This document shows positions 12,303 to 51,853 of a stretch of DNA of 64,000 bases, one piece after another. Both the position numbers and the translations under genes were made by a program. The notes under the pieces were generated by a model. That model saw only the letters and a list, made by a program, of their open reading frames with translations, did not search any database and was not told where the DNA came from. This DNA is from Escherichia phage FV3: the sequence record NC_019517.1; one strand, 5' to 3'. How positions within the stretch are numbered: the stretch's first letter is position 1; every line of letters begins with the position of its first letter.

Positions 12303-12683
12303 ATGTGCAAGTGTAAATCCTATAATTGGAAAGTGAAAGGTGCCAAGCATCAAAATGTTATCGTTGATGTGCCTAAAAAGCTCCGTGACGGCAAAAAACG
12401 TGTGTGCCTTGATAAGTGCATGGCTAAACCTATCATGAGCTTGTGGGCAGCAGGATTGAAGACTCTAAACTGCTGCTGTGGTCATAACAAAGATGTTCCA
12501 AGCATCATTATCCCAGAGGATGCAGACCCTAAAGCTTATGCCAAAATACTGACTCGCTACCCCAGCACCTTTCTGATCGGAAAATGGTGTCACGATGAAC
12601 TTCAATGGTGGGTAGCATACGGCAGCATAGGTACTGCTTTTGGCTTTCCAGCTTTGTCAGAGCGCTACGTCAAAGTGTCATAA
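12303..12683 (+). CDS. Cys-rich hypothetical protein (126 aa)
   Basis: CKCK...CLDKC...CCCGH cysteine clusters suggest metal binding. Confidence 0.4.
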   Translation: MCKCKSYNWKVKGAKHQNVIVDVPKKLRDGKKRVCLDKCMAKPIMSLWAAGLKTLNCCCGHNKDVPSIIIPEDADPKAYAKILTRYPSTFLIGKWCHDELQWWVAYGSIGTAFGFPALSERYVKVS

Positions 12684-12787
12684 TCGATTTTAAGGCCTCT
12701 TTTGAGGCCTGTGCCTTCAATAGTTCCACCATCCCTTGTGATTACACCCACCTTTCCAAAAACTTCCCTAAAACGCTTAAAAATGTT

Positions 12788-12817
12788 GTTGACAGCGCAT
12801 ACCTTGGTTTGCTATTC
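12788..12817 (+). promoter_or_regulatory. Candidate internal sigma70-like promoter (TTGACA-N18-TATTCT)
   Basis: TTGACA at 12788-12793, TATTCT at 12812-12817, upstream of GGAG RBS and the ATG at 12851. Confidence 0.35.
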
Positions 12818-12850
12818 TCATTATCACAGATACAGAACGGAGTAACAAAA

Positions 12851-13108
12851 ATGTCACTACGAAAGTTAACAGATAATTGTAAAGCTGTACAAGTATCTCC
12901 TTGTGGTTGGGACGTGATTGCAAACGATGAAAAAATCGGTGAGGTTATTGATCACACATACTCATCATTGGCAGACCACACTGATCAGTTGTGGGAAGGC
13001 GTAAACTGTAAAAATAATACTAAACGGTTCAAGACTATGGACGAAGCCATTTGTTTTGTCTACACCCACGCTTCTAATATTCAGGGAAACGGAAAATGGC
13101 ACATGTAA
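12851..13108 (+). CDS. Hypothetical protein (85 aa)
   Basis: Start trimmed from the track ORF 12605-13108 to the ATG with GGAG RBS downstream of the candidate promoter. Confidence 0.4.
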   Translation: MSLRKLTDNCKAVQVSPCGWDVIANDEKIGEVIDHTYSSLADHTDQLWEGVNCKNNTKRFKTMDEAICFVYTHASNIQGNGKWHM

Positions 13109-13425
13109 ATATTAAACTACATTATCATGGTAGAAAACCAAAATATCCAATGCATAAAGTATTTTGGGGGTTGCATATCCAAGAAAAAGAAGGTATTGGT
13201 TATTGGTTTTGTGACCACGATCAACAGTGGCATACCCATGAAGAAGTAAGCACTATGATGGAGCAGGGTATTAAATTTAATTACTCAAACTATGATCATG
13301 GTGTTAATTGCATTCGAAAATTGAAACGATTTCTTAGAAAGAATCCTAAACTTAAAGGGCTTACATTCTTTATGTCTCATAACTACATGGGGTATAGTGC
13401 TACTGTAACTGCAAGGATTAAGTAA
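13096..13425 (+). CDS. Hypothetical protein (109 aa)
   Basis: ORF overlapping upstream gene end. Confidence 0.4.
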   Translation: MAHVNIKLHYHGRKPKYPMHKVFWGLHIQEKEGIGYWFCDHDQQWHTHEEVSTMMEQGIKFNYSNYDHGVNCIRKLKRFLRKNPKLKGLTFFMSHNYMGYSATVTARIK

Positions 13426-44662: not shown

Positions 44663-45574
44663 TTATTTTCCGTTAACTTTGTTGTAGTTTCCCTGCTCAG
44701 ATGGGACTATGGTAGAAGGTCTTCCATATTCCTGATAATACCAATCCGCAGCAGATTGGGTAACACCGTTTTCATCCGTCCACATCATAGATTTGTATGG
44801 CTGCCACTCTTCTGCAGCATTTGTGGATGCAGTGTCTGCAAATGCCCCTGTGTCCCTCTTGTTACCTACGTTACTGCCATTCTTACAATCGTTGACAGCA
44901 CCTTTTTGCTGGGTCTTGCCTACTTTCTTAGGGTTGCTGTATACAGTTGCATTAACAACCTTGTTCAAGTAGAATGTGCGGAACTCTGTAAGTTCTACAT
45001 CAAACACCATCGCAGCGCCTTCACCAACAGACTTGTTGGCAGAAAGACTGGTTATGATGTAGTTCTCAAGGAGTCTCTCCTCGGTAACCAAAGAAACCAA
45101 TTGGCGCTTATTAATGATCTCAGTCAAAGCCTCCAGTGCAGCGCCCGGTCGCATAGATGCTGCAGGGTTTTTAGAGTCAGTATTCCTGTCAATGTAGTTT
45201 TGCTCATAGATTATATGTGGTGATGTATTTACCCTACCAGTAAAAGAAAATACACCATCTTTAATTACAGCGTGGTCTGACAGGGTAGATTTATCTTCCA
45301 CCGCAAAATCAGTCTTATCAACAGAATGTTTGAAAGAGTAATTCTCAACCTGATCGAAGATAATGGCAAGATCGTTAGTAAAGTTTTTACCCTTCATCTC
45401 CGTATTGCGACCACCATAGTTAAGACCGCTGACAAACATAGTGTATTTTACATCGCTTTCAGTTTGCTGCTCTGCCTTTTCAGCCTTTGGAGATTTAACC
45501 TCTTGAGGCTTGTACAGGTCTTTTTCATCAACTATATTGCTTGGCATAACCTCTCCAGGACACTCCGATACCAT
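44663..45574 (-). CDS. Putative tail/baseplate protein (303 aa; start may be at internal Met 10)
   Basis: First gene downstream of tape measure. Confidence 0.4.
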   Translation of the reverse strand: MVSECPGEVMPSNIVDEKDLYKPQEVKSPKAEKAEQQTESDVKYTMFVSGLNYGGRNTEMKGKNFTNDLAIIFDQVENYSFKHSVDKTDFAVEDKSTLSDHAVIKDGVFSFTGRVNTSPHIIYEQNYIDRNTDSKNPAASMRPGAALEALTEIINKRQLVSLVTEERLLENYIITSLSANKSVGEGAAMVFDVELTEFRTFYLNKVVNATVYSNPKKVGKTQQKGAVNDCKNGSNVGNKRDTGAFADTASTNAAEEWQPYKSMMWTDENGVTQSAADWYYQEYGRPSTIVPSEQGNYNKVNGK

Positions 45575-45611
45575 CTAAATATTGTATCATAAAATAGCCG
45601 TTTTTACAACA

Positions 45612-45641
45612 CCGATAAAATAAAGGGGGCCAGAGCCCCCT
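45612..45641 (-). terminator. Candidate terminator/attenuator hairpin downstream of the tape measure gene
   Basis: GGGGGC-N4-GCCCCC hairpin followed on the minus strand by TTTATTTTATC. Confidence 0.4.
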
Positions 45642-45653
45642 GTGTGCTGTTTA

Positions 45654-47993
45654 TTACCAAAGATCTGTTGACATAAAGTTAATATCTTTGTTATTCTCCC
45701 ACTCAAGTTTTGCATCGAGTATTTTGCTAAACTCACCCTCATCTATTGAAATCGTGATTTTGCCATCACTGATCTCTAAAGGTAGCATTTCCATAGTTCT
45801 TAATTGAGAAGCAAAACCAGGGCCACCTGGCAACGGAAGAGTACCGCCCGGTAAGGTATCCAAAGGATCAACAAACCCGTTACCTCCCGATATGATATCT
45901 TTGCGAATCATATCGCTGATAGTATCCAGTTGCTGATTTCTCTCACTCAGTGGGTTGAAACGGTCATTAAATAACTCCCCGGCACTTAATATTGTACCGA
46001 TAATACCAAGCTTACCAAGCAGGCCAACTTTACCACCAGGTGTCTTGAGGCCACCTCCCCCTTTTCCTGCTGCACCCCCACCAGATCCTTCTGTGGTAGC
46101 TGCACCCGCTGCTGCTGCTCCAGCTGCACCTCTTAGAGAGCTAAGGAATTTGAAGGTTTTTACAAGCATAGATGCCATGACAAAACCTTTTGTCAGGGCG
46201 TTCACTACCAGCATGATGGCAGCAGCAAACCCTGCCCATTTAGCATAGCTAAAGGTGTCATGAAGCTCTTCAGAATATTCCTTCGTCTTAGCTGTTATGA
46301 ATCCCCATTTAATCCCCCATTCAAGGAAAAACATGCGGATCTTGACTATGGTATTGTTTAGTTCACCAATTACCCAGTTGAGACCTCTCACAAACCCACT
46401 AACAAAATCACCAGAGGCATCCCACACAAATTGCAAAGTCTCACCAGTGCGAATCAGTGTATAATAGAACTCTGTTAGTTCATCAGCCCAACGGGTGAAT
46501 AGTTTCTGACGAGACAGTTCGATGAAGGTTTTCAGTCGGTTTTCTGCCAGTACGTTAGACTTCTGCATTCTTTCATAACCAGCTGCAGATGCCTCGTTCA
46601 TGTACTTAGCCACATACTTCATGATCTTGGCTGTCTTAACCTCACCTTTCTTCATCATGTCCATGAACTGATCCATGGATAGTTCAGAAAGACCAAAAGC
46701 CTCTTTGGTGGCCTTGATAAAAGGTTCGTATGCACCGGGCAATGCTTCAGCAAGTTGTTGCTTCAGTTCTTCGGACATTACCTGTCCTTTACCGAGCATT
46801 TGCTGGATTGCCATAATGCCGCGCTGGTATTTTACCTCATCGGCACCATAAGCAGCAGCATACTGTGAGTATGCAGAGAATAGCTCATGCACCTCTTGAT
46901 TTGTCATCTGGTTTTTGGCGTTTACCGCCATCTGGGCGTAACCTTGAAGACCAGATTTGAGATCAAAACCAAGACGCATAGCCTCTTGCTGGACAAACGC
47001 AACCTCACTGTTGGCCTTGTTTGGATCTCCAGTAACAGCAGTAAGAGCAGCACTTGCCCCCTCCATCATGTGACCAGATCTGTTCACAGCAGTAAATCCA
47101 GAGAAAGCCGTATACGCAGCTGTTGCATTAATAACAGATCTACGTAAGTCTCTCATGGCATCGCCTAGTGTAAGCGTTTGGCTTGTAGCGCTTTTAAATC
47201 CAGACTGCAGAGCTGACAGGTGGGCGTTAAAGGTTGACTTTTTCATCTCCCCGCGAGCAAACCTGGACTCTAACTCTGAGTATCCTGGCAAGCTTCCACG
47301 GAATCCGGCCCCATACTTGGCAGAAAGTCTTATCGCAGAGTTGTATAGGTGGGTTCTCCTTGCCTCACGATCAGACATAAGCTTATTATCCATACCAGCT
47401 TTACTGTCTCTTCTTAGCTGTCTATGATAACGATTCATAGCAGCTGTCTGAGCTTTCACAAGGTTAGGGTCGGAAGCCACACCACCCATATTAGAGTTAC
47501 CAGGGATATACTTGAAAGATTTGGCATTAGCCAAAACTCTTGCCTTAGGTGCCTTATAACCGCCGTAAGACACTGGTGCAGATTTGGTAGCCTTTTTGGC
47601 CTCTTTAGCTTGCTGCTGGTAGAACTTACGCATCCTAGCCATTTCTGGATTTTTAGCGGTAAGATTACCCACAGCTTGTTTACGTCTCGCGTTCTCCCTA
47701 CGTTCTATTGCAGCCCTTACTGCAGCCTCTTTCTTGGCCTGTGCTACGCTCTCCCTGTGCAGTTTAGCATTTGCCTGAGATTGCTGTCTGGCAACCCGCT
47801 GCATTGTTTGCTGGGTTTTAACAGCCACTGCCTGCCATCTACTCATTGGGTTGGCTGAGTTAAAATCCTCGCCCAGTTTCCTGAACTCCCTCCCAATACT
47901 GCGAATTTTCTCTACAGCTTTTTTGTAGGAGGAGTTCTCTATCTCAAAGCCAATCTTGTTGACTGTTGTGGCAACTATTTTGTTTGTAGCCAT
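45654..47993 (-). CDS. Tail tape measure protein (779 aa)
   Basis: Long helical protein with hydrophobic segment and Gly-rich stretch; preceded by frameshifted chaperone genes. Confidence 0.7.
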   Translation of the reverse strand: MATNKIVATTVNKIGFEIENSSYKKAVEKIRSIGREFRKLGEDFNSANPMSRWQAVAVKTQQTMQRVARQQSQANAKLHRESVAQAKKEAAVRAAIERRENARRKQAVGNLTAKNPEMARMRKFYQQQAKEAKKATKSAPVSYGGYKAPKARVLANAKSFKYIPGNSNMGGVASDPNLVKAQTAAMNRYHRQLRRDSKAGMDNKLMSDREARRTHLYNSAIRLSAKYGAGFRGSLPGYSELESRFARGEMKKSTFNAHLSALQSGFKSATSQTLTLGDAMRDLRRSVINATAAYTAFSGFTAVNRSGHMMEGASAALTAVTGDPNKANSEVAFVQQEAMRLGFDLKSGLQGYAQMAVNAKNQMTNQEVHELFSAYSQYAAAYGADEVKYQRGIMAIQQMLGKGQVMSEELKQQLAEALPGAYEPFIKATKEAFGLSELSMDQFMDMMKKGEVKTAKIMKYVAKYMNEASAAGYERMQKSNVLAENRLKTFIELSRQKLFTRWADELTEFYYTLIRTGETLQFVWDASGDFVSGFVRGLNWVIGELNNTIVKIRMFFLEWGIKWGFITAKTKEYSEELHDTFSYAKWAGFAAAIMLVVNALTKGFVMASMLVKTFKFLSSLRGAAGAAAAGAATTEGSGGGAAGKGGGGLKTPGGKVGLLGKLGIIGTILSAGELFNDRFNPLSERNQQLDTISDMIRKDIISGGNGFVDPLDTLPGGTLPLPGGPGFASQLRTMEMLPLEISDGKITISIDEGEFSKILDAKLEWENNKDINFMSTDLW

Positions 47994-48000
47994 GCTTTCC

Positions 48001-48043
48001 TCATAATAAAAAGGGCCAGATCCCAGAAAAGGAATCCGGCCCT
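48001..48043 (-). terminator. Terminator-like 10-bp hairpin plus U-tract between chaperone and tape measure genes
   Basis: AGGGCCGGAU...AUCUGGCCCU stem on the minus-strand transcript followed by TTTTTATTATGA. Confidence 0.35.
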
Positions 48044-48047
48044 TAGA

Positions 48048-48296
48048 TTATCCTCTCCTGCGCTTAGCTTTCGCAGCAGCTGCGGCAGCCTTCTGCTCCC
48101 GCTCCATTTCCCTGTTTTGGACGGTATCTAGGAATTCTTCGATATCAAGATACTCACAGAGCTTCAGGAAATACGCCATATCTGCAAGATTTAGCGATTC
48201 AAAATTTTCCCCTTTGAAATTCTTGAGCACCCTGCACCAAAGAAAGTCGAACCAGTTGAGTGAACTGTTCTTGGCTGCCCACTCACTGGCCCTCAC
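48048..48296 (-). CDS. Tail assembly chaperone -1 frameshift extension (GT-like product, C-terminal part)
   Basis: ORF in the -1 frame relative to 48308-48781; that frame opens 3 codons upstream of a UUUUUUC slippery heptamer. Confidence 0.45.
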   Translation of the reverse strand: MRASEWAAKNSSLNWFDFLWCRVLKNFKGENFESLNLADMAYFLKLCEYLDIEEFLDTVQNREMEREQKAAAAAAKAKRRRG

Positions 48297-48307
48297 AACA
48301 ACCTTGC

Positions 48308-48781
48308 TTATTCCTGCTCTTCCGGAGTCTGATCCAGATTGTTCACCTGCTGAATCATACCCATCTGCTGTAACATCTCCAGAAGGCTTCCTAAACCGTC
48401 TTGTGTGAAAAAACAGCCGTAGTTAACCTCCAGAACCTTACCTGCCAGCTTAATCATCTCCAGCAGATGCCCTGCAAACACAACATCAGGGTTAAGCTTA
48501 TCCACACCATCCACGGTAATATCTTCGAACAAGATTTTAAATAACTCTTCGATAGAGTTATCATCAAGTTCTTGGAACAGGTAAGCCAGGGCTGTAGGAA
48601 GGACCTCTGCCATATTCTGACCGCCTGAGAGAATAGATCCACCGATAGCACCTAGCGGGACAGCTACAATCTTACCGATTTTAGGCATGTTTTTCATTGC
48701 TTTCATCGGTCCCCAGTGGGTGATCACAAAGTTGTGCCCTGCTAAATCAATCTCTGTTGTAGGTCTAAAGTTTATAGCCAT
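48308..48781 (-). CDS. Tail assembly chaperone (G-like, 157 aa)
   Basis: Position between tail tube and tape measure; contains a slippery site near the 3-prime end. Confidence 0.5.
   Translation of the reverse strand: MAINFRPTTEIDLAGHNFVITHWGPMKAMKNMPKIGKIVAVPLGAIGGSILSGGQNMAEVLPTALAYLFQELDDNSIEELFKILFEDITVDGVDKLNPDVVFAGHLLEMIKLAGKVLEVNYGCFFTQDGLGSLLEMLQQMGMIQQVNNLDQTPEEQE
48407..48413 (-). other. Candidate programmed -1 ribosomal frameshift slippery heptamer U_UUU_UUC
   Basis: Minus-strand TGT TTT TTC at codons 123-125 of the chaperone; -1 frame open from here to the stop at 48048. Confidence 0.45.
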
Positions 48782-48892
48782 TTTATAGCATCCTTATTAG
48801 TCATGTTGTGCACCATATTTGTGTATTTTACCATGATTATGGTGCATTGTCAATTTAACCTTTCAAGCAATTCAAGAACGTGTGTCAAAACC

Positions 48893-48929
48893 ATAAAAGC
48901 AAAAAGCCCCACCCGAAGGTGAGGCCTAT
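48893..48929 (-). terminator. Rho-independent terminator downstream of the tail tube gene
   Basis: GCCUCACC-UUCG-GGUGGGGC hairpin followed by TTTTTGCTTTTAT on the minus strand. Confidence 0.5.
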
Positions 48930-48943
48930 GCTAAAGTGTGCCC

Positions 48944-49417
48944 TTAGATAATACCTGCAAGACCTGCGAGGCCAGTGAGAGCACCAGTGATGTTGTCACG
49001 GTTGAGCCATGCATCCAGAATACCAATATCCCAGTCCAGTTGACCTACTTCGGTTCCGTAAGTCAGGTCAGGCTGCTTCTGAATCCAACCGATTGTGGAA
49101 ATACCAGGACCCTGGCTGCCCTCCAGCAGAACTGGGAAGAATACCAGACCAGTAATCGATGCCTGTTTCTGCCAGTCAGAGAGGTAAGCGTTCCATACAG
49201 AAGTGTTCTGCAAAGACACAGTCATAACACCTGATTGGTTACGAGACAGTGCCGCAGACATTTCGCCATCCACACCAACATGAGGGTAGATGTTGTCTTC
49301 GTTTCTTGAAACAACGATCTTGGTGTCAGCAGCGAAGCCAGTGACACGCTGCTGCATCAGATACAGTTTGACCTTTTTAGGGTCATACGCATAAGGAGTT
49401 AAAATTTGAGTTTCCAT
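48944..49417 (-). CDS. Putative tail tube protein (157 aa)
   Basis: Size and position immediately downstream of the sheath gene and upstream of the chaperones. Confidence 0.5.
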   Translation of the reverse strand: METQILTPYAYDPKKVKLYLMQQRVTGFAADTKIVVSRNEDNIYPHVGVDGEMSAALSRNQSGVMTVSLQNTSVWNAYLSDWQKQASITGLVFFPVLLEGSQGPGISTIGWIQKQPDLTYGTEVGQLDWDIGILDAWLNRDNITGALTGLAGLAGII

Positions 49418-49427
49418 CTAGTCTTCC

Positions 49428-50804
49428 TTATTCAGTCATTGCAACAGCATTGGTGGATTTAGAACCAACTTTGTCCAGAAGGACGTTGATCCGGATACGA
49501 ACGAAGTGCAGGGCGTTGTTATACACCAGTTCCACTTTCACACCTTCCAGAACACGAGCAGCCAACTGATTGGTTGGGATCTCTGCACGTTTAGGAACTG
49601 TGATGATCGGGTCGTAGAACACATTGTTGTCTTCGTCAAAACCTGTCAGGATCGCGCCATTCTTAATGCCAGTATTGATCGGGTTGTTCATCAGAACAGA
49701 CTTGATAACCGGAAGATCATCATCAGACATCTTCATGCTTAAACCCATATTGGAGCGGCGATGCATGTACCCGAACATGGATTCTTCAGATCTGAACTTG
49801 ATCCAGTGTGCAAAACGAATAGCGTCTGCATACTGACCTGAAGCACACTTACCTTCCCAGAAAGCGCCAACACCGTTAATCATTCTGTAGAAGTTAACGT
49901 GGTTTTCCCAAATCGCCATACGCTGAGTCAAAGTCAGAGATGGTGCAATCACACCAGGCATCTGTTTTAAGTGCAAACTGTCACCGTAAGACGGGTCGTT
50001 GGATGCCATAGCACCTATGATACCACCCTCCGGAAAATCTTTATCCGCACGAGGATCGTACATGCCGACGCTATCATATTGTGCAGCCATCAGTTTGGTG
50101 GCGATGTTACTATCTTTGCCAGTCACATCTTCTGCCGTAGAGTAGACGTGCAGCTTGTAGTTGGCCTGAGCCCACTTAGCACATGCTTCAATGTCGGTGT
50201 GGTCTTCATGGCACAGGAAGTACCAATTGTCACGCTCAGCATTGATCTTATCAACTACTGTAGAAGGTTTTTCAGCATTGGCGATATTTTTGATTGTATA
50301 GTTACCAGTATGATAACCAACAGTACAGTCACCCGTGATGGTGAGAACACCGTCTTCAGCCGCTACAGTGATATCGTTCAAGCTATCATCTGCTTCAATT
50401 TTAGTCTTCATTGACTCTGCAATCTGAGTTGCACCTGTTCCACCAGAGATAGGCACTATCAGAGAAGTATTGTAGCTACCTTTTGCAATAGTCATTACGA
50501 CATCAGTATCAGCTGCGGCAGCAATACCTTTAAAATCTACAGTGGTTTTTTCTTTTGCCTGTCTGCCGATCATAACATACTGCGGAGGGAATACACCGCC
50601 GAAAGCTTTTGCTGCAAACTCATAAGCTGCAGAGCCTTGTGCGAAACCGTCTTCCACCATCTGATCCAGCTCCGCATATACGCGAGCTCGCTCAGTGAAG
50701 TTGTTGTGGATAGCGATGAACAGCGGAGTTTCGAAACCTACAGTGTCAATAGGCTGGGTTCCGAGGTTAACTGTAACATCTACCACTTTATCTAAATATG
50801 GCAT
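49428..50804 (-). CDS. Tail sheath protein (458 aa)
   Basis: Size and synteny (neck, sheath, tube, chaperones, tape measure); C-terminal region resembles sheath conserved motifs (GAFWEGK against P2 FI GFRFWGNRT). Confidence 0.6.
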   Translation of the reverse strand: MPYLDKVVDVTVNLGTQPIDTVGFETPLFIAIHNNFTERARVYAELDQMVEDGFAQGSAAYEFAAKAFGGVFPPQYVMIGRQAKEKTTVDFKGIAAAADTDVVMTIAKGSYNTSLIVPISGGTGATQIAESMKTKIEADDSLNDITVAAEDGVLTITGDCTVGYHTGNYTIKNIANAEKPSTVVDKINAERDNWYFLCHEDHTDIEACAKWAQANYKLHVYSTAEDVTGKDSNIATKLMAAQYDSVGMYDPRADKDFPEGGIIGAMASNDPSYGDSLHLKQMPGVIAPSLTLTQRMAIWENHVNFYRMINGVGAFWEGKCASGQYADAIRFAHWIKFRSEESMFGYMHRRSNMGLSMKMSDDDLPVIKSVLMNNPINTGIKNGAILTGFDEDNNVFYDPIITVPKRAEIPTNQLAARVLEGVKVELVYNNALHFVRIRINVLLDKVGSKSTNAVAMTE

Positions 50805-50844
50805 TTGTTTCCTCTTAATATCTGTGCACGGATATCAAACACGC

Positions 50845-50871
50845 AGTGTAATCATTACACTACACAATTAT
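50845..50871 (-). promoter_or_regulatory. Candidate promoter -10 (TATAAT) with adjacent 15-nt palindrome GTGTAATCATTACAC upstream of the sheath gene
   Basis: Perfect TATAAT on the minus strand at 50866-50871; weak -35 TTACAG; palindrome at 50845-50859 between -10 and RBS. Confidence 0.3.
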
Positions 50872-50876
50872 AACGA

Positions 50877-51428
50877 TTACTGACCACTGTCTGTAACCGA
50901 TTTATCAGAATTGGGTGAAGGGAAGTGTGTGGTTATTTCAGCCTTAATTCCCTGAAGATCCTCAAAAGCCCCAATGTCTGTCTCAACAAACCTTACGTTA
51001 AATGTCAGCATTACCGTGGCCCTATTTTCATACGTCTGCTTATTCAACGGCACTCTTTGAGGTGAGATTGTTGAATTGTTAGAGTAAGCAAAGCACGATC
51101 CCAGAGGGAAATACTTGTCATAAAACATTGGAAGATTTATTGCTTGCAATACTCTGCTAAGTGCAGCATGTGCCCTGCCACGATAAGCTGTTAACAGATA
51201 GGTAACAGTGTAACTGTGTGTTACGTAAGCATTACCCTCCGCATCTTGAAACTCATTATCTTCCCAAGTGGTGGGATTGATCGCCAAGGTTTGTAAAAGT
51301 ACAAACTCACCTTCCGGCTTCGGTATGGTAGAGCTTTCTGCCAGAACTACAGTTCTTCCTGTGGCAACCTTGACAAGCTTAGCAATGGTTGTTTCAAGAT
51401 CAGAAAAAACTTTTTCGAAAGCTTCCAT
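50877..51428 (-). CDS. Putative neck/tail completion protein (183 aa)
   Basis: Position between head and tail modules. Confidence 0.4.
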   Translation of the reverse strand: MEAFEKVFSDLETTIAKLVKVATGRTVVLAESSTIPKPEGEFVLLQTLAINPTTWEDNEFQDAEGNAYVTHSYTVTYLLTAYRGRAHAALSRVLQAINLPMFYDKYFPLGSCFAYSNNSTISPQRVPLNKQTYENRATVMLTFNVRFVETDIGAFEDLQGIKAEITTHFPSPNSDKSVTDSGQ

Positions 51429-51853
51429 TAGTTTTCTCCTTCAGGCTCTTCCACCACAAAAAATCTATATCTTCCACCGCCAGATGTGACATATGCATCG
51501 CATTTTAAAACGGTAAACCATTTCAAGTCACCACGGATGTCAGGCAGCTGAATTTGATCAGCCATTGCATATGTTCCTTCATCTGGACTGTACAACTTGG
51601 TTGAGGAGTAAACTGTAAAAGCCTCGTACTGTCTGTCACCTTCAGGATTTATTTGAGAGGAGTAATCTTTAGCTGCCCTTCCTGTCAACGGTTGCACAAC
51701 ACACTCTAAGACATCAAACTCTTCATACTCAAGTTCTAACCCCTCGTTAGCAAAAGGACCACCAACTGTTTTGTTATACACTCTGTGGCGACCTTTGAAT
51801 GTTTTACGAGGTATTAGCCTGTTCTTTCCTATCAGCCTATAACCTGCTGCCAC
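51428..51853 (-). CDS. Putative head-tail joining protein (141 aa)
   Basis: Position; 1-nt overlap with neighbour. Confidence 0.4.
   Translation of the reverse strand: MAAGYRLIGKNRLIPRKTFKGRHRVYNKTVGGPFANEGLELEYEEFDVLECVVQPLTGRAAKDYSSQINPEGDRQYEAFTVYSSTKLYSPDEGTYAMADQIQLPDIRGDLKWFTVLKCDAYVTSGGGRYRFFVVEEPEGEN

What the first reader, a model, noticed from the sequence alone, without database searches (positions are those of the whole stretch)
48048..48781. Programmed -1 frameshift predicted in the tail assembly chaperone
The minus-strand heptamer T_TTT_TTC (plus coordinates 48407-48413) lies at codons 123-125 of the 157-aa chaperone. The -1 frame opens only three codons upstream and stays open to the stop at 48048, predicting a roughly 244-aa fusion product, which is the conserved G/GT strategy of tailed phages. 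A terminator-like hairpin at 48001-48043 sits oddly between this gene and the tape measure gene and could instead be an RNA structure affecting frameshift or translation.
Basis: seen in the sequence. Interest (0 to 1): 0.4.

Follow-up and report, generated by a model that had tools for sequence, protein, structure and literature searches.

The report
Tail chaperone frameshift in rV5-like phage
An rV5-like E. coli phage very probably makes a short and a long form of its tail assembly chaperone by letting some ribosomes slip back one base at a TTTTTTC run, which is the standard trick of long-tailed phages and here only fills an annotation gap.

Summary
On the minus strand, T_TTT_TTC (48413-48407) lies in phase at codons 123-125 of a 157-aa tail assembly chaperone (Pfam Phage_TAC_15). 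The -1 frame opens 9 nt upstream and runs to the stop at 48050-48048, giving a 244-aa fusion.

The window is an rV5-like myophage (Vequintavirus). Comparison strongly supports a programmed -1 frameshift:
- In 45 distinct sequence contexts from several phage groups, the three third-codon bases of the heptamer never vary beyond C/T, while the residue before Phe-Phe changes (C/P/S).
- The -1 frame always stays open for 76-127 codons.
- No start codon is conserved ahead of the conserved downstream domain.
- Barbavirus has a lambda-type G_GGA_AAG a few codons downstream instead.

I found no conserved downstream RNA structure. A GGAGG 13 nt upstream may stimulate slipping.

The hairpin at 48044-48011 is an intrinsic terminator, conserved with compensatory changes across Vequintavirinae. 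It lies about 360 nt from the slip site and is not a frameshift element.

The same site is already annotated as a frameshift in Mooglevirus and was described in 2025 for related families. No sampled Vequintavirinae record joins the two ORFs. Verdict: a new member of a known kind, of low interest.

The parts
48308..48781 (-). Short chaperone form (G-like, 157 aa), read in the zero frame
48407..48413 (-). Slippery heptamer T_TTT_TTC (codons 123-125: tgT TTT TTC)
   Evidence: Phase verified. T_TTT_TTY is invariant in 45 distinct contexts, while the preceding codon is TGT, CCT, TCT or AGT. The same heptamer sits at the homologous site in Mordin, where GenBank carries a joined CDS.
48048..48407 (-). 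-1 frame segment (119 codons plus stop) that forms the C-terminal part of the 244-aa long form. It comprises a low-complexity linker and a conserved T-like domain, and is usually annotated as a separate 82-aa ORF (48296-48048).
   Evidence: frame. phrog_10409 at 1.9e-51. The domain is conserved across genera without a conserved start codon. tblastn with the fusion always matches relatives in two pieces.
48423..48425 (-). Last stop codon (TAA) of the -1 frame upstream of the heptamer
   Evidence: the -1 frame opens 9 nt upstream of the heptamer.
48427..48431 (-). GGAGG, a Shine-Dalgarno-like pentamer 13 nt 5' of the heptamer and a candidate stimulator
   Evidence: Sequence. GGAG or GAGG is present in 35 of 45 distinct contexts. 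The Glu codon at this position is GAG 36 times and GAA 3 times, against 187:477 elsewhere in the same genes. Its function is inferred, not shown.
48001..48044 (-). Intrinsic terminator between the stop of the long form and the tape measure gene: stem-loop 48044-48011, T tract to about 48001
   Evidence: -28.2 kcal/mol, z -3.1. Annotated as a Rho-independent terminator in rV5 and Murica. Conserved in position in Vequintavirinae, with 6 of 11 pairs showing compensatory changes.
45654..47993 (-). Tape measure protein gene (779 aa). Its GAGGA ribosome binding site lies at about 47998-48002, directly after the T tract.
   Evidence: Pfam TMP_3 at 2e-18 and phrog_5255. Sequence.
48944..49417 (-). Tail tube gene (157 aa)
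   Evidence: Pfam KPP10_Orf10 at 7e-9 and phrog_280. Annotated as tail tube in HeinrichReichert.
49428..50804 (-). Tail sheath gene (458 aa)
   Evidence: phrog_205 'tail sheath' at 7.5e-118 and Pfam DUF3383.
48825..48853 (-). Sigma-70-like promoter (TTGACA, 17 nt, TAAAAT, with TG) just upstream of the chaperone gene
   Evidence: Best promoter-like site in 45500-51500, matching 11 of 12 positions. Annotated as promoter P51 in rV5.
48904..48927 (-). Terminator-like hairpin after the tube gene
   Evidence: A terminator is annotated at the same place in Murica.

Best explanation
The chaperone gene of this rV5-like phage is decoded in two ways.

1. Most ribosomes read the zero frame to the stop at 48310-48308 and make the 157-aa short form.
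2. A minority slip back one nucleotide on U_UUU_UUC. At that point tRNA-Phe occupies both the P site (UUU) and the A site (UUC), and both can re-pair with UUU.
3. Those ribosomes continue in the -1 frame to 48050-48048 and make a 244-aa long form. It shares residues 1-125 with the short form, then carries a low-complexity linker and a conserved C-terminal domain.

By analogy with lambda gpG and gpGT, the shared N-terminal domain would coat the tape measure protein, and the extra domain of the long form would recruit the tube protein. The slip rate would then fix the ratio of the two forms.

Slipping seems to rely on the heptamer itself, possibly helped by an upstream GGAGG that pairs with 16S rRNA at a 13-nt spacing, as in dnaX. 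No downstream hairpin or pseudoknot is evident.

The hairpin after the long-form stop is a separate element. It is an intrinsic terminator that probably lowers transcription into the tape measure gene.

Shown: the sequence anatomy, the family assignment and the conservation. Inferred: the slip itself, its rate, the role of GGAGG and the roles of the two proteins.
For: Anatomy and phase of the site.

Chaperone identity and gene order (sheath, tube, chaperone, tape measure). A weak fold match to the chaperones YqbN and HK97.

Conservation of the site:
- T_TTT_TTC is at the homologous codon in Vequintavirus, Mydovirus, Henunavirus, Seunavirus, Avunavirus, Certrevirus, Phapecoctavirus, Justusliebigvirus, Plateaulakevirus, Felixounavirus and Mooglevirus. 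Protein identity in these falls to 24-32%.
- In 45 distinct contexts, including IMG/VR contigs, third-base entropy is 0 at the first two heptamer codons and only C/T occurs at the third. The residue at the first codon is S, C or P, and upstream third bases vary freely.
- The -1 frame is open for 76-127 codons after the site in every case, whereas the +1 frame mostly closes within 25 codons.

The downstream domain depends on the shift:
- No start codon is conserved ahead of the conserved downstream domain.
- Barbavirus lacks the T run but has an in-phase G_GGA_AAG four codons downstream that leads into the same -1 frame.
- All 73 database homologues of the fusion are 149-159 aa. None is fused in frame.
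- The confident part of the AF2 model ends at about residue 125.

External support:
- U_UU.C is the second most shift-prone tetramer in E. coli, and all-pyrimidine heptamers are shift-prone (PMC4066793).
- The same site carries a joined CDS in Mordin.
- A frameshift is stated for Moogle (PMC4319497).
- A conserved -1 frameshift is proposed for the related families Vandenendeviridae and Andersonviridae (PMC12846349).
Against: - No protein, peptide or reporter data exist for this phage or, as far as I found, for any Vequintavirinae member.
- No stable or conserved RNA structure follows the heptamer. In the window the 70 nt downstream fold no better than shuffles (z = +0.85), and there is no common fold in 23 taxa. 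The slip rate may therefore be low.
- The loci from IMG/VR were retrieved with a peptide pattern ending in FF. That selects for Phe-Phe, although not for codon choice.
- The sequences are related, so the counts are not independent events.
- The GGAGG overlaps a conserved Leu-Glu-Val peptide and is missing in about a fifth of contexts.
Confidence: 0.87

Rival explanations
1. Transcriptional slippage. RNA polymerase adds one extra U while copying the T6 run, so a fraction of the mRNAs encode the 244-aa fusion by ordinary translation.
For: The site is a homopolymer run, and a one-base insertion gives exactly the -1 frame. One Felixounavirus record (CL1) has T7 at this site and is annotated as a single in-frame 213-aa chaperone. 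This shows that a one-base gain yields the fusion.
Against: - The run is only six T. From my own knowledge of the literature, not tested here, efficient slippage by bacterial RNA polymerase usually needs runs of about 8-9 or more.
- The run is always in the X_XXY_YYZ phase in all 45 contexts, which polymerase slippage would not require.
- Barbavirus replaces the run with G_GGA_AAG, a classic ribosomal heptamer that is not a homopolymer.
Confidence: 0.06
2. The downstream ORF is an independent small gene translated from its own start (GTG at 48296, 82 aa), as most GenBank records annotate it. The heptamer would then be incidental.
For: A GTG with a weak AAGG upstream exists at 48296. Many records annotate a separate hypothetical protein here.
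Against: - The annotated starts differ widely among relatives, giving ORFs of 114 to 369 nt.
- No start codon is conserved upstream of the conserved domain. In most genera the first candidate start lies inside that domain.
- The -1 frame is kept open from the heptamer to the domain in every relative, through regions otherwise called intergenic.
- The heptamer is conserved at synonymous sites.
Confidence: 0.04
3. The two-frame arrangement is a sequencing error or a recent frameshift mutation in a gene that is really a single 244-aa ORF.
For: Homopolymer runs are error-prone, and CL1 shows a T7 variant.
Against: - The same T6 and the same two-frame layout occur in every locus I read directly: 21 isolate records from 12 groups and 70 IMG/VR loci.
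- tblastn with the fusion matches relatives down to about 28% identity in two pieces.
- None of the 73 database homologues is fused.
- The zero-frame tail after the site is itself conserved.
Confidence: 0.01

Closest known systems
Lambda gpG/gpGT and the conserved tail-chaperone frameshift of long-tailed dsDNA phages (Xu, Hendrix and Duda 2004, as cited in PMC8785237 and PMC5009743)
   Same: - Two overlapping ORFs lie between the major tail (tube) gene and the tape measure gene.
- The downstream ORF is in the -1 frame.
[quoted passage not shown]
- The long form shares the N-terminal domain of the short form.
- No strong downstream structure is evident.
   Different: The heptamer is T_TTT_TTC rather than lambda's G_GGA_AAG. 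The phage is a contractile-tailed myophage. There is no detectable sequence similarity to lambda gpG. A conserved terminator follows the long-form stop.
Tape measure chaperone frameshift of Felix O1-like phages (Mooglevirus Moogle and Mordin; Andersonviridae) and of Vandenendeviridae (Pakpunavirus Adele; PMC12846349)
   Same: These are homologous chaperones, with 24-28% identity in alignment A1. The T_TTT_TTC heptamer sits at the aligned codon after N(Y/F)G(C/S)FF, and the shift is again -1. Mordin carries a joined CDS. The 2025 paper reports an invariant GTTTTT motif.
   Different: - In the Felix O1-like phages the long form is shorter (212-213 aa), and the tape measure start overlaps or abuts the stop, with no terminator.
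- The published analysis covered Vandenendeviridae and Andersonviridae. It did not cover Vequintavirinae.
E. coli dnaX -1 frameshift (A_AAA_AAG with an upstream Shine-Dalgarno-like stimulator and a downstream hairpin)
   Same: There is an SD-like GGAGG upstream of a homopolymeric heptamer. From memory, the 13-nt spacing falls within the 10-14 nt range reported to stimulate -1 shifting.
   Different: No downstream hairpin was found. The GGAGG is not universal among relatives. Its effect is untested.
T7 gene 10A/10B -1 frameshift at G_GUU_UUC (cited in PMC8785237)
   Same: It is a U-rich slip site decoded by tRNA-Phe in the A site, giving a minor C-terminally extended product in an E. coli phage.
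   Different: It is a capsid gene, not a chaperone, and its P-site codon is different.

Membership tests
G/GT-type tail assembly chaperone with programmed -1 frameshift | The gene pair lies between the major tail (tube) gene and the tape measure gene | tested here: met
   The minus-strand order is sheath 50804-49428, tube 49417-48944, chaperone 48781-48308, -1 ORF to 48048, tape measure 47993-45654.
G/GT-type tail assembly chaperone with programmed -1 frameshift | The downstream ORF overlaps the 3' end of the first ORF in the -1 frame and has no start of its own that could account for the conserved part | tested here: met
   The overlap is 115 nt. No start codon is conserved ahead of the conserved domain in 16 divergent taxa.
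G/GT-type tail assembly chaperone with programmed -1 frameshift | An in-phase slippery heptamer X_XXY_YYZ lies within the overlap | tested here: met
   T_TTT_TTC at 48413-48407, in phase. This heptamer class is shift-prone in E. coli (PMC4066793).
G/GT-type tail assembly chaperone with programmed -1 frameshift | The slip site and the two-frame layout are conserved in divergent relatives beyond what coding requires | tested here: met
   In 45 distinct contexts the heptamer third bases are invariant while the amino acid at the first codon varies. The -1 frame is always open for 76-127 codons. Barbavirus substitutes G_GGA_AAG.
G/GT-type tail assembly chaperone with programmed -1 frameshift | The first ORF belongs to a tail assembly chaperone family or fold | tested here: met
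G/GT-type tail assembly chaperone with programmed -1 frameshift | Both the short and the long protein are made, the long one as a minor species, and both are needed for tail assembly | not testable with these tools
   This needs protein detection or genetics. I found no proteomic report. The rV5 paper does not mention frameshift or chaperone.
Intrinsic (Rho-independent) terminator, for the 48001-48044 hairpin | A G+C-rich stem-loop immediately followed by a T tract on the transcribed strand | tested here: met
   14-bp stem with 8 G-C pairs, 6-nt loop, then TTTTTATTAT. Free energy -28.2 kcal/mol, z -3.1.
Intrinsic (Rho-independent) terminator, for the 48001-48044 hairpin | The structure, rather than the sequence, is conserved in relatives | tested here: met
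   In 10 Vequintavirinae sequences, 6 of 11 pairs show compensatory changes and the T tract is retained.
Intrinsic (Rho-independent) terminator, for the 48001-48044 hairpin | Transcripts end at the T tract | not testable with these tools
   This needs Term-seq or Northern data.
3' RNA stimulator of -1 frameshifting (hairpin or pseudoknot 5-9 nt after the heptamer) | A stable structure starting a few nucleotides downstream of the slip site and conserved in relatives | tested here: not met
   The 70 nt downstream fold at -10.9 kcal/mol, z +0.85. There is no common fold in 23 taxa. Rfam gives nothing. The 48044-48011 hairpin lies about 360 nt away.
dnaX-type upstream Shine-Dalgarno stimulator | An SD-like sequence about 10-14 nt 5' of the heptamer, maintained at synonymous sites | tested here: inconclusive
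   GGAGG lies 13 nt upstream. GGAG or GAGG is present in 35 of 45 contexts. GAG:GAA is 36:3 at this position against 187:477 elsewhere. However, it overlaps a conserved peptide, is absent in some lineages, and has no functional test.
Programmed transcriptional slippage | A long homopolymer run (about 8-9 or more A/T), with no requirement for codon phase | tested here: not met
   The run is T6 and always in the same codon phase. A non-homopolymer heptamer replaces it in Barbavirus. The length threshold is from my own knowledge.

The most novel reading that the evidence does not exclude
The frameshift signal of this chaperone family may be a deeply conserved two-part signal with no 3' structure. 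It would consist of a T_TTT_TTY heptamer plus a dnaX-like GGAGG 13 nt upstream, kept across several phage families. In Vequintavirinae the chaperone gene would also be insulated as its own small transcription unit: a sigma-70-like promoter upstream and a conserved terminator downstream. Together with the slip rate, that unit would set the chaperone to tape measure ratio.
Probability: 0.3. Interest if true: 0.3.

Novelty: new member of a known kind. Interest (0 to 1): 0.2.

Why it matters
The practical value is better annotation. In every Vequintavirinae and Stephanstirmvirinae record whose feature table I read, the region is annotated as one or two unjoined ORFs. In the roughly 110 records listed, none carries the duplicated chaperone entry seen in frameshift-annotated relatives. 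The downstream ORF is usually called 'hypothetical protein', with inconsistent start sites. Reading it as the C-terminal half of a long chaperone form gives that ORF a function. It also corrects many records of phages used in therapy and biocontrol studies.

Biologically, it extends one specific slip site, T_TTT_TTY after N-Y-G-x-F-F, from Felix O1-like and Pakpunavirus-like phages to the rV5-like and phi92-like groups. It also offers a clean natural test set for frameshifting without a 3' structure. It does not change current understanding of tail assembly.

Tried and rejected
- **Downstream stimulatory RNA.** I folded the 70 nt after the heptamer in 23 taxa and searched Rfam. Nothing was stable or conserved.
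- **The 48001-48043 hairpin as a frameshift element.** Rejected on distance, anatomy and phylogenetic distribution.
- **An independent start for the downstream ORF.** No start codon is conserved. The rV5 record's ORF 50 begins at a CTG directly at the T run, which looks like a gene-caller artefact.
- **Sequencing error.** Rejected on conservation. The one-base length difference in phage JES2013 is in the terminator T tract, not in the slip site.
- **Other slip candidates in the window.** The only other heptamer followed by a long -1 frame (GGGAAAC in 12605-13108, plus strand) is an ordinary overlap with the next gene, which has its own ATG.
- **Solved structures by sequence.** There are no significant matches for the chaperone profile or for the fusion.
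- **Literature.** I searched for a described frameshift in rV5-like, Vequintavirinae or phi92 phages and found none. The Csp-D17 paper only cites the T4 chaperone study.
- **Not attempted.** I did not model the long form or its T-like domain.

Full report
**What the window is.** The 5.3-kb stretch around the finding is 96-98% identical to more than 100 Escherichia phages of the genus Vequintavirus (rV5-like myophages).

On the minus strand the gene order is as follows:

| Coordinates | Gene | Main evidence |
|---|---|---|
| 50804-49428 | Tail sheath | phrog_205, 7.5e-118 |
| 49417-48944 | Tail tube | Pfam KPP10_Orf10; phrog_280 |
| 48781-48308 | 157-aa chaperone | Pfam Phage_TAC_15, 1.1e-23; phrog_3840, 6e-69 |
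| 48296-48048 | ORF in another frame | phrog_10409, function unknown |
| 47993-45654 | Tape measure protein | Pfam TMP_3; phrog_5255 |
| 45574-44663 | Dit-like protein | Pfam Dit_like |

**Check of the observation.**
- TTTTTTC occupies 48413-48407 on the minus strand. The zero frame reads tgT TTT TTC (Cys123-Phe124-Phe125), which is the X_XXY_YYZ phase.
- The last -1 frame stop (TAA, 48425-48423) lies 9 nt upstream of the heptamer.
- The -1 frame then runs for 119 codons to the TAA at 48050-48048.
- A canonical slip gives 125 + 119 = 244 aa.

As a null for the window, I counted 53 in-phase XXXYYYZ heptamers in ORFs of at least 150 aa. After them the -1 frame stays open for about 7 codons typically and 21 at most. 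The exceptions are this site (119 codons) and one case at 12605-13108 on the plus strand. That case is an ordinary overlap with the next gene, which has its own ATG.

**Comparative evidence.** This is the core of the argument.

*The heptamer is retained across distant relatives.* I read the homologous locus in isolates of these groups:
- Mydovirus, Henunavirus, Seunavirus, Avunavirus and Certrevirus
- an unclassified Vequintavirinae phage
- Phapecoctavirus, Justusliebigvirus (phi92-like), Plateaulakevirus and Barbavirus
- Felixounavirus and Mooglevirus

I also read 70 IMG/VR contigs. Chaperone identity to the window falls to 24-32% in the distant groups. Even so, T_TTT_TTC is found at the aligned codon, after the motif N-(Y/F)-G-x-F-F, in all of them except Barbavirus.

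*The conservation is at the nucleotide level, not only the protein level.* In 45 distinct 69-nt contexts:
- The third base of the codon before Phe-Phe is always T, although the residue is Ser (22), Cys (12) or Pro (11), encoded by TCT, AGT, TGT or CCT.
- The first Phe codon is always TTT.
- The second Phe codon is TTC (39) or TTT (6).
- The third bases of the seven codons upstream vary freely, with entropy of 0.9-1.8 bits, apart from one Glu codon discussed below.

*The reading frames behave as a frameshift predicts.* After the site the -1 frame is open for 76-127 codons in every case. The +1 frame usually closes within 25 codons.

Caveats: the IMG/VR search pattern ended in FF, so Phe-Phe itself was selected for, although codon choice was not. 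The sequences are also related, so the counts are not independent events.

**Three further observations point to ribosomal frameshifting.**
1. The conserved C-terminal domain (consensus roughly ISKVV-RA-EYA-KNSSL-WFDYLWCR-LK-FKGE…ADM-YLLKLNEYLD) has no conserved start codon ahead of it. In most genera the first ATG, GTG or TTG lies inside the domain. Annotators have accordingly called ORFs of 114 to 369 nt at this place.
2. Barbavirus lacks the T run. It carries an in-phase G_GGA_AAG, which is lambda's own heptamer, four codons further on, and this leads into the same -1 frame (…GKVFRIPSGDSG… against …FFHTRRFRKPSGDV… here). A change of slippery sequence with retention of the shift is hard to explain without selection for the shift. 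It also argues against polymerase slippage on a homopolymer.
3. A search of 5.8 billion predicted proteins with the 244-aa fusion returned 73 homologues. All are 149-159 aa, and none is fused in frame. The two-frame layout is therefore the rule and not an error in this window.

The AF2 model of the short form is of moderate quality (pLDDT 68.6). Its confident part ends near residue 125, at the slip site, and the zero-frame tail is of low confidence. This fits a shared domain with two alternative tails.

**Stimulatory elements.** The 70 nt after the heptamer fold no better than shuffled sequence in the window (-10.9 kcal/mol, z +0.85). They show no common structure in 23 taxa, and Rfam finds nothing.

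Upstream, a GGAGG at 48431-48427 lies 13 nt from the heptamer.
- GGAG or GAGG occupies this position in 35 of 45 contexts.
- The Glu codon involved is GAG 36 times and GAA 3 times. Elsewhere in the same genes the ratio is 187:477.

This resembles the upstream Shine-Dalgarno stimulator of dnaX. The spacing range for that stimulator is from my own memory. The element overlaps a conserved Leu-Glu-Val peptide and is absent in some lineages, so I treat it as a candidate only.

In E. coli, U_UU.C is the second most shift-prone tetramer, and all-pyrimidine heptamers are shift-prone (PMC4066793).

**The hairpin.** The element at 48044-48011 has a 14-bp stem and a 6-nt loop and is followed by TTTTTATTAT.
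- It is the best terminator-like site in 45500-51500.
- Its free energy is -28.2 kcal/mol, z -3.1.
- It lies after the stop of the long form, about 360 nt from the slip site, and just before the tape measure ribosome binding site.
- rV5 and Murica annotate it as a Rho-independent terminator.
- A hairpin plus T tract sits at the same place in all Vequintavirinae genera examined, with different stem sequences. Six of 11 pairs show compensatory changes.
- It is absent in phi92-like, Felix O1-like and many metagenomic relatives, where the tape measure start abuts the stop. Those relatives keep the heptamer.

The hairpin is therefore a terminator, or an attenuator of read-through into the tape measure gene. 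It is not part of the frameshift signal.

**Comparison with what is known.** The mechanism is the conserved tail-chaperone frameshift of long-tailed phages (lambda G/GT; reviewed in PMC5009743). The exact site is already recognised in sister groups.
- Mordin (Mooglevirus) carries a joined CDS at the same T_TTT_TTC.
- A December 2025 paper argues for a conserved -1 frameshift with an invariant GTTTTT motif in Vandenendeviridae and Andersonviridae, and notes their relatedness to Vequintavirinae (PMC12846349).

I found no paper that describes the frameshift for rV5-like or phi92-like phages. None of the Vequintavirinae or Stephanstirmvirinae feature tables I read joins the two ORFs. Nor does any of the roughly 110 records listed show the duplicated chaperone entry seen in frameshift-annotated relatives.

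**Verdict.** The hairpin side suggestion is not supported. This is a new member of a known kind and mainly an annotation correction, so interest is low. No protein-level evidence exists. The decisive tests are a reporter assay with synonymous heptamer and GGAGG knockouts, and detection of the junction peptide VLEVNYGCFFHTR.

Noticed in passing
L018:974-1615 (Escherichia phage CL1, OK040806.1 84151-84792): This Felixounavirus record has seven T at the slip site instead of six. The chaperone is therefore annotated as one in-frame 213-aa protein, identical to the predicted frameshift product. Sampled sister records align over 641 of the 642 nt, consistent with six T. It is either a homopolymer sequencing error or a natural long-form-only variant.
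   Followed up: partly
L017:917-1611 (Rheinheimera phage Barba30A, MK719749.1): Barbavirus lacks the T run. It has an in-phase G_GGA_AAG, lambda's heptamer, four codons downstream, and this leads into the homologous -1 frame. It looks like a natural replacement of the slip site.
   Followed up: partly
window 48825-48853 and 48904-48927 (minus strand): The chaperone gene has a near-consensus sigma-70-like promoter (TTGACA, 17 nt, TAAAAT, with TG) right upstream, preceded by a terminator-like hairpin after the tube gene. With the downstream terminator, the chaperone gene looks like a small transcription unit of its own inside the tail operon. My regular-expression scan found the promoter only in the window. 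Other genera have a shorter intergenic region that contains only a hairpin.
   Followed up: partly
window 48427-48431 (minus strand): A GGAGG lies 13 nt upstream of the heptamer. The Glu codon within it is GAG in 36 of 39 relatives that have Glu there, although GAA dominates elsewhere in these genes. It may be a dnaX-like stimulator.
   Followed up: partly
L003:649-1017 (rV5, DQ832317.1 47514-47882): The original rV5 record annotates ORF 50 as a 122-aa protein that starts at a CTG directly abutting the T run and overlaps ORF 51 by 109 nt. This looks like a gene-caller artefact that traces the -1 frame.
   Followed up: yes
window 12605-13425 (plus strand): An in-phase G_GGA_AAC lies seven codons before the stop of a 167-aa ORF and is followed by a 111-codon open -1 frame. 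The next gene (13096-13425) has its own ATG, so this looks like an ordinary 13-nt gene overlap.
   Followed up: partly
L092:101-902 (phage JES2013, NC_022323.1): The only length difference from the window across the chaperone region is one extra T in the terminator T tract.
   Followed up: yes
window 45622-45641 (minus strand): Another terminator-like hairpin (AGGGGGCTCTGGCCCCCT followed by a T-rich tail) lies directly after the tape measure gene stop.
   Followed up: no
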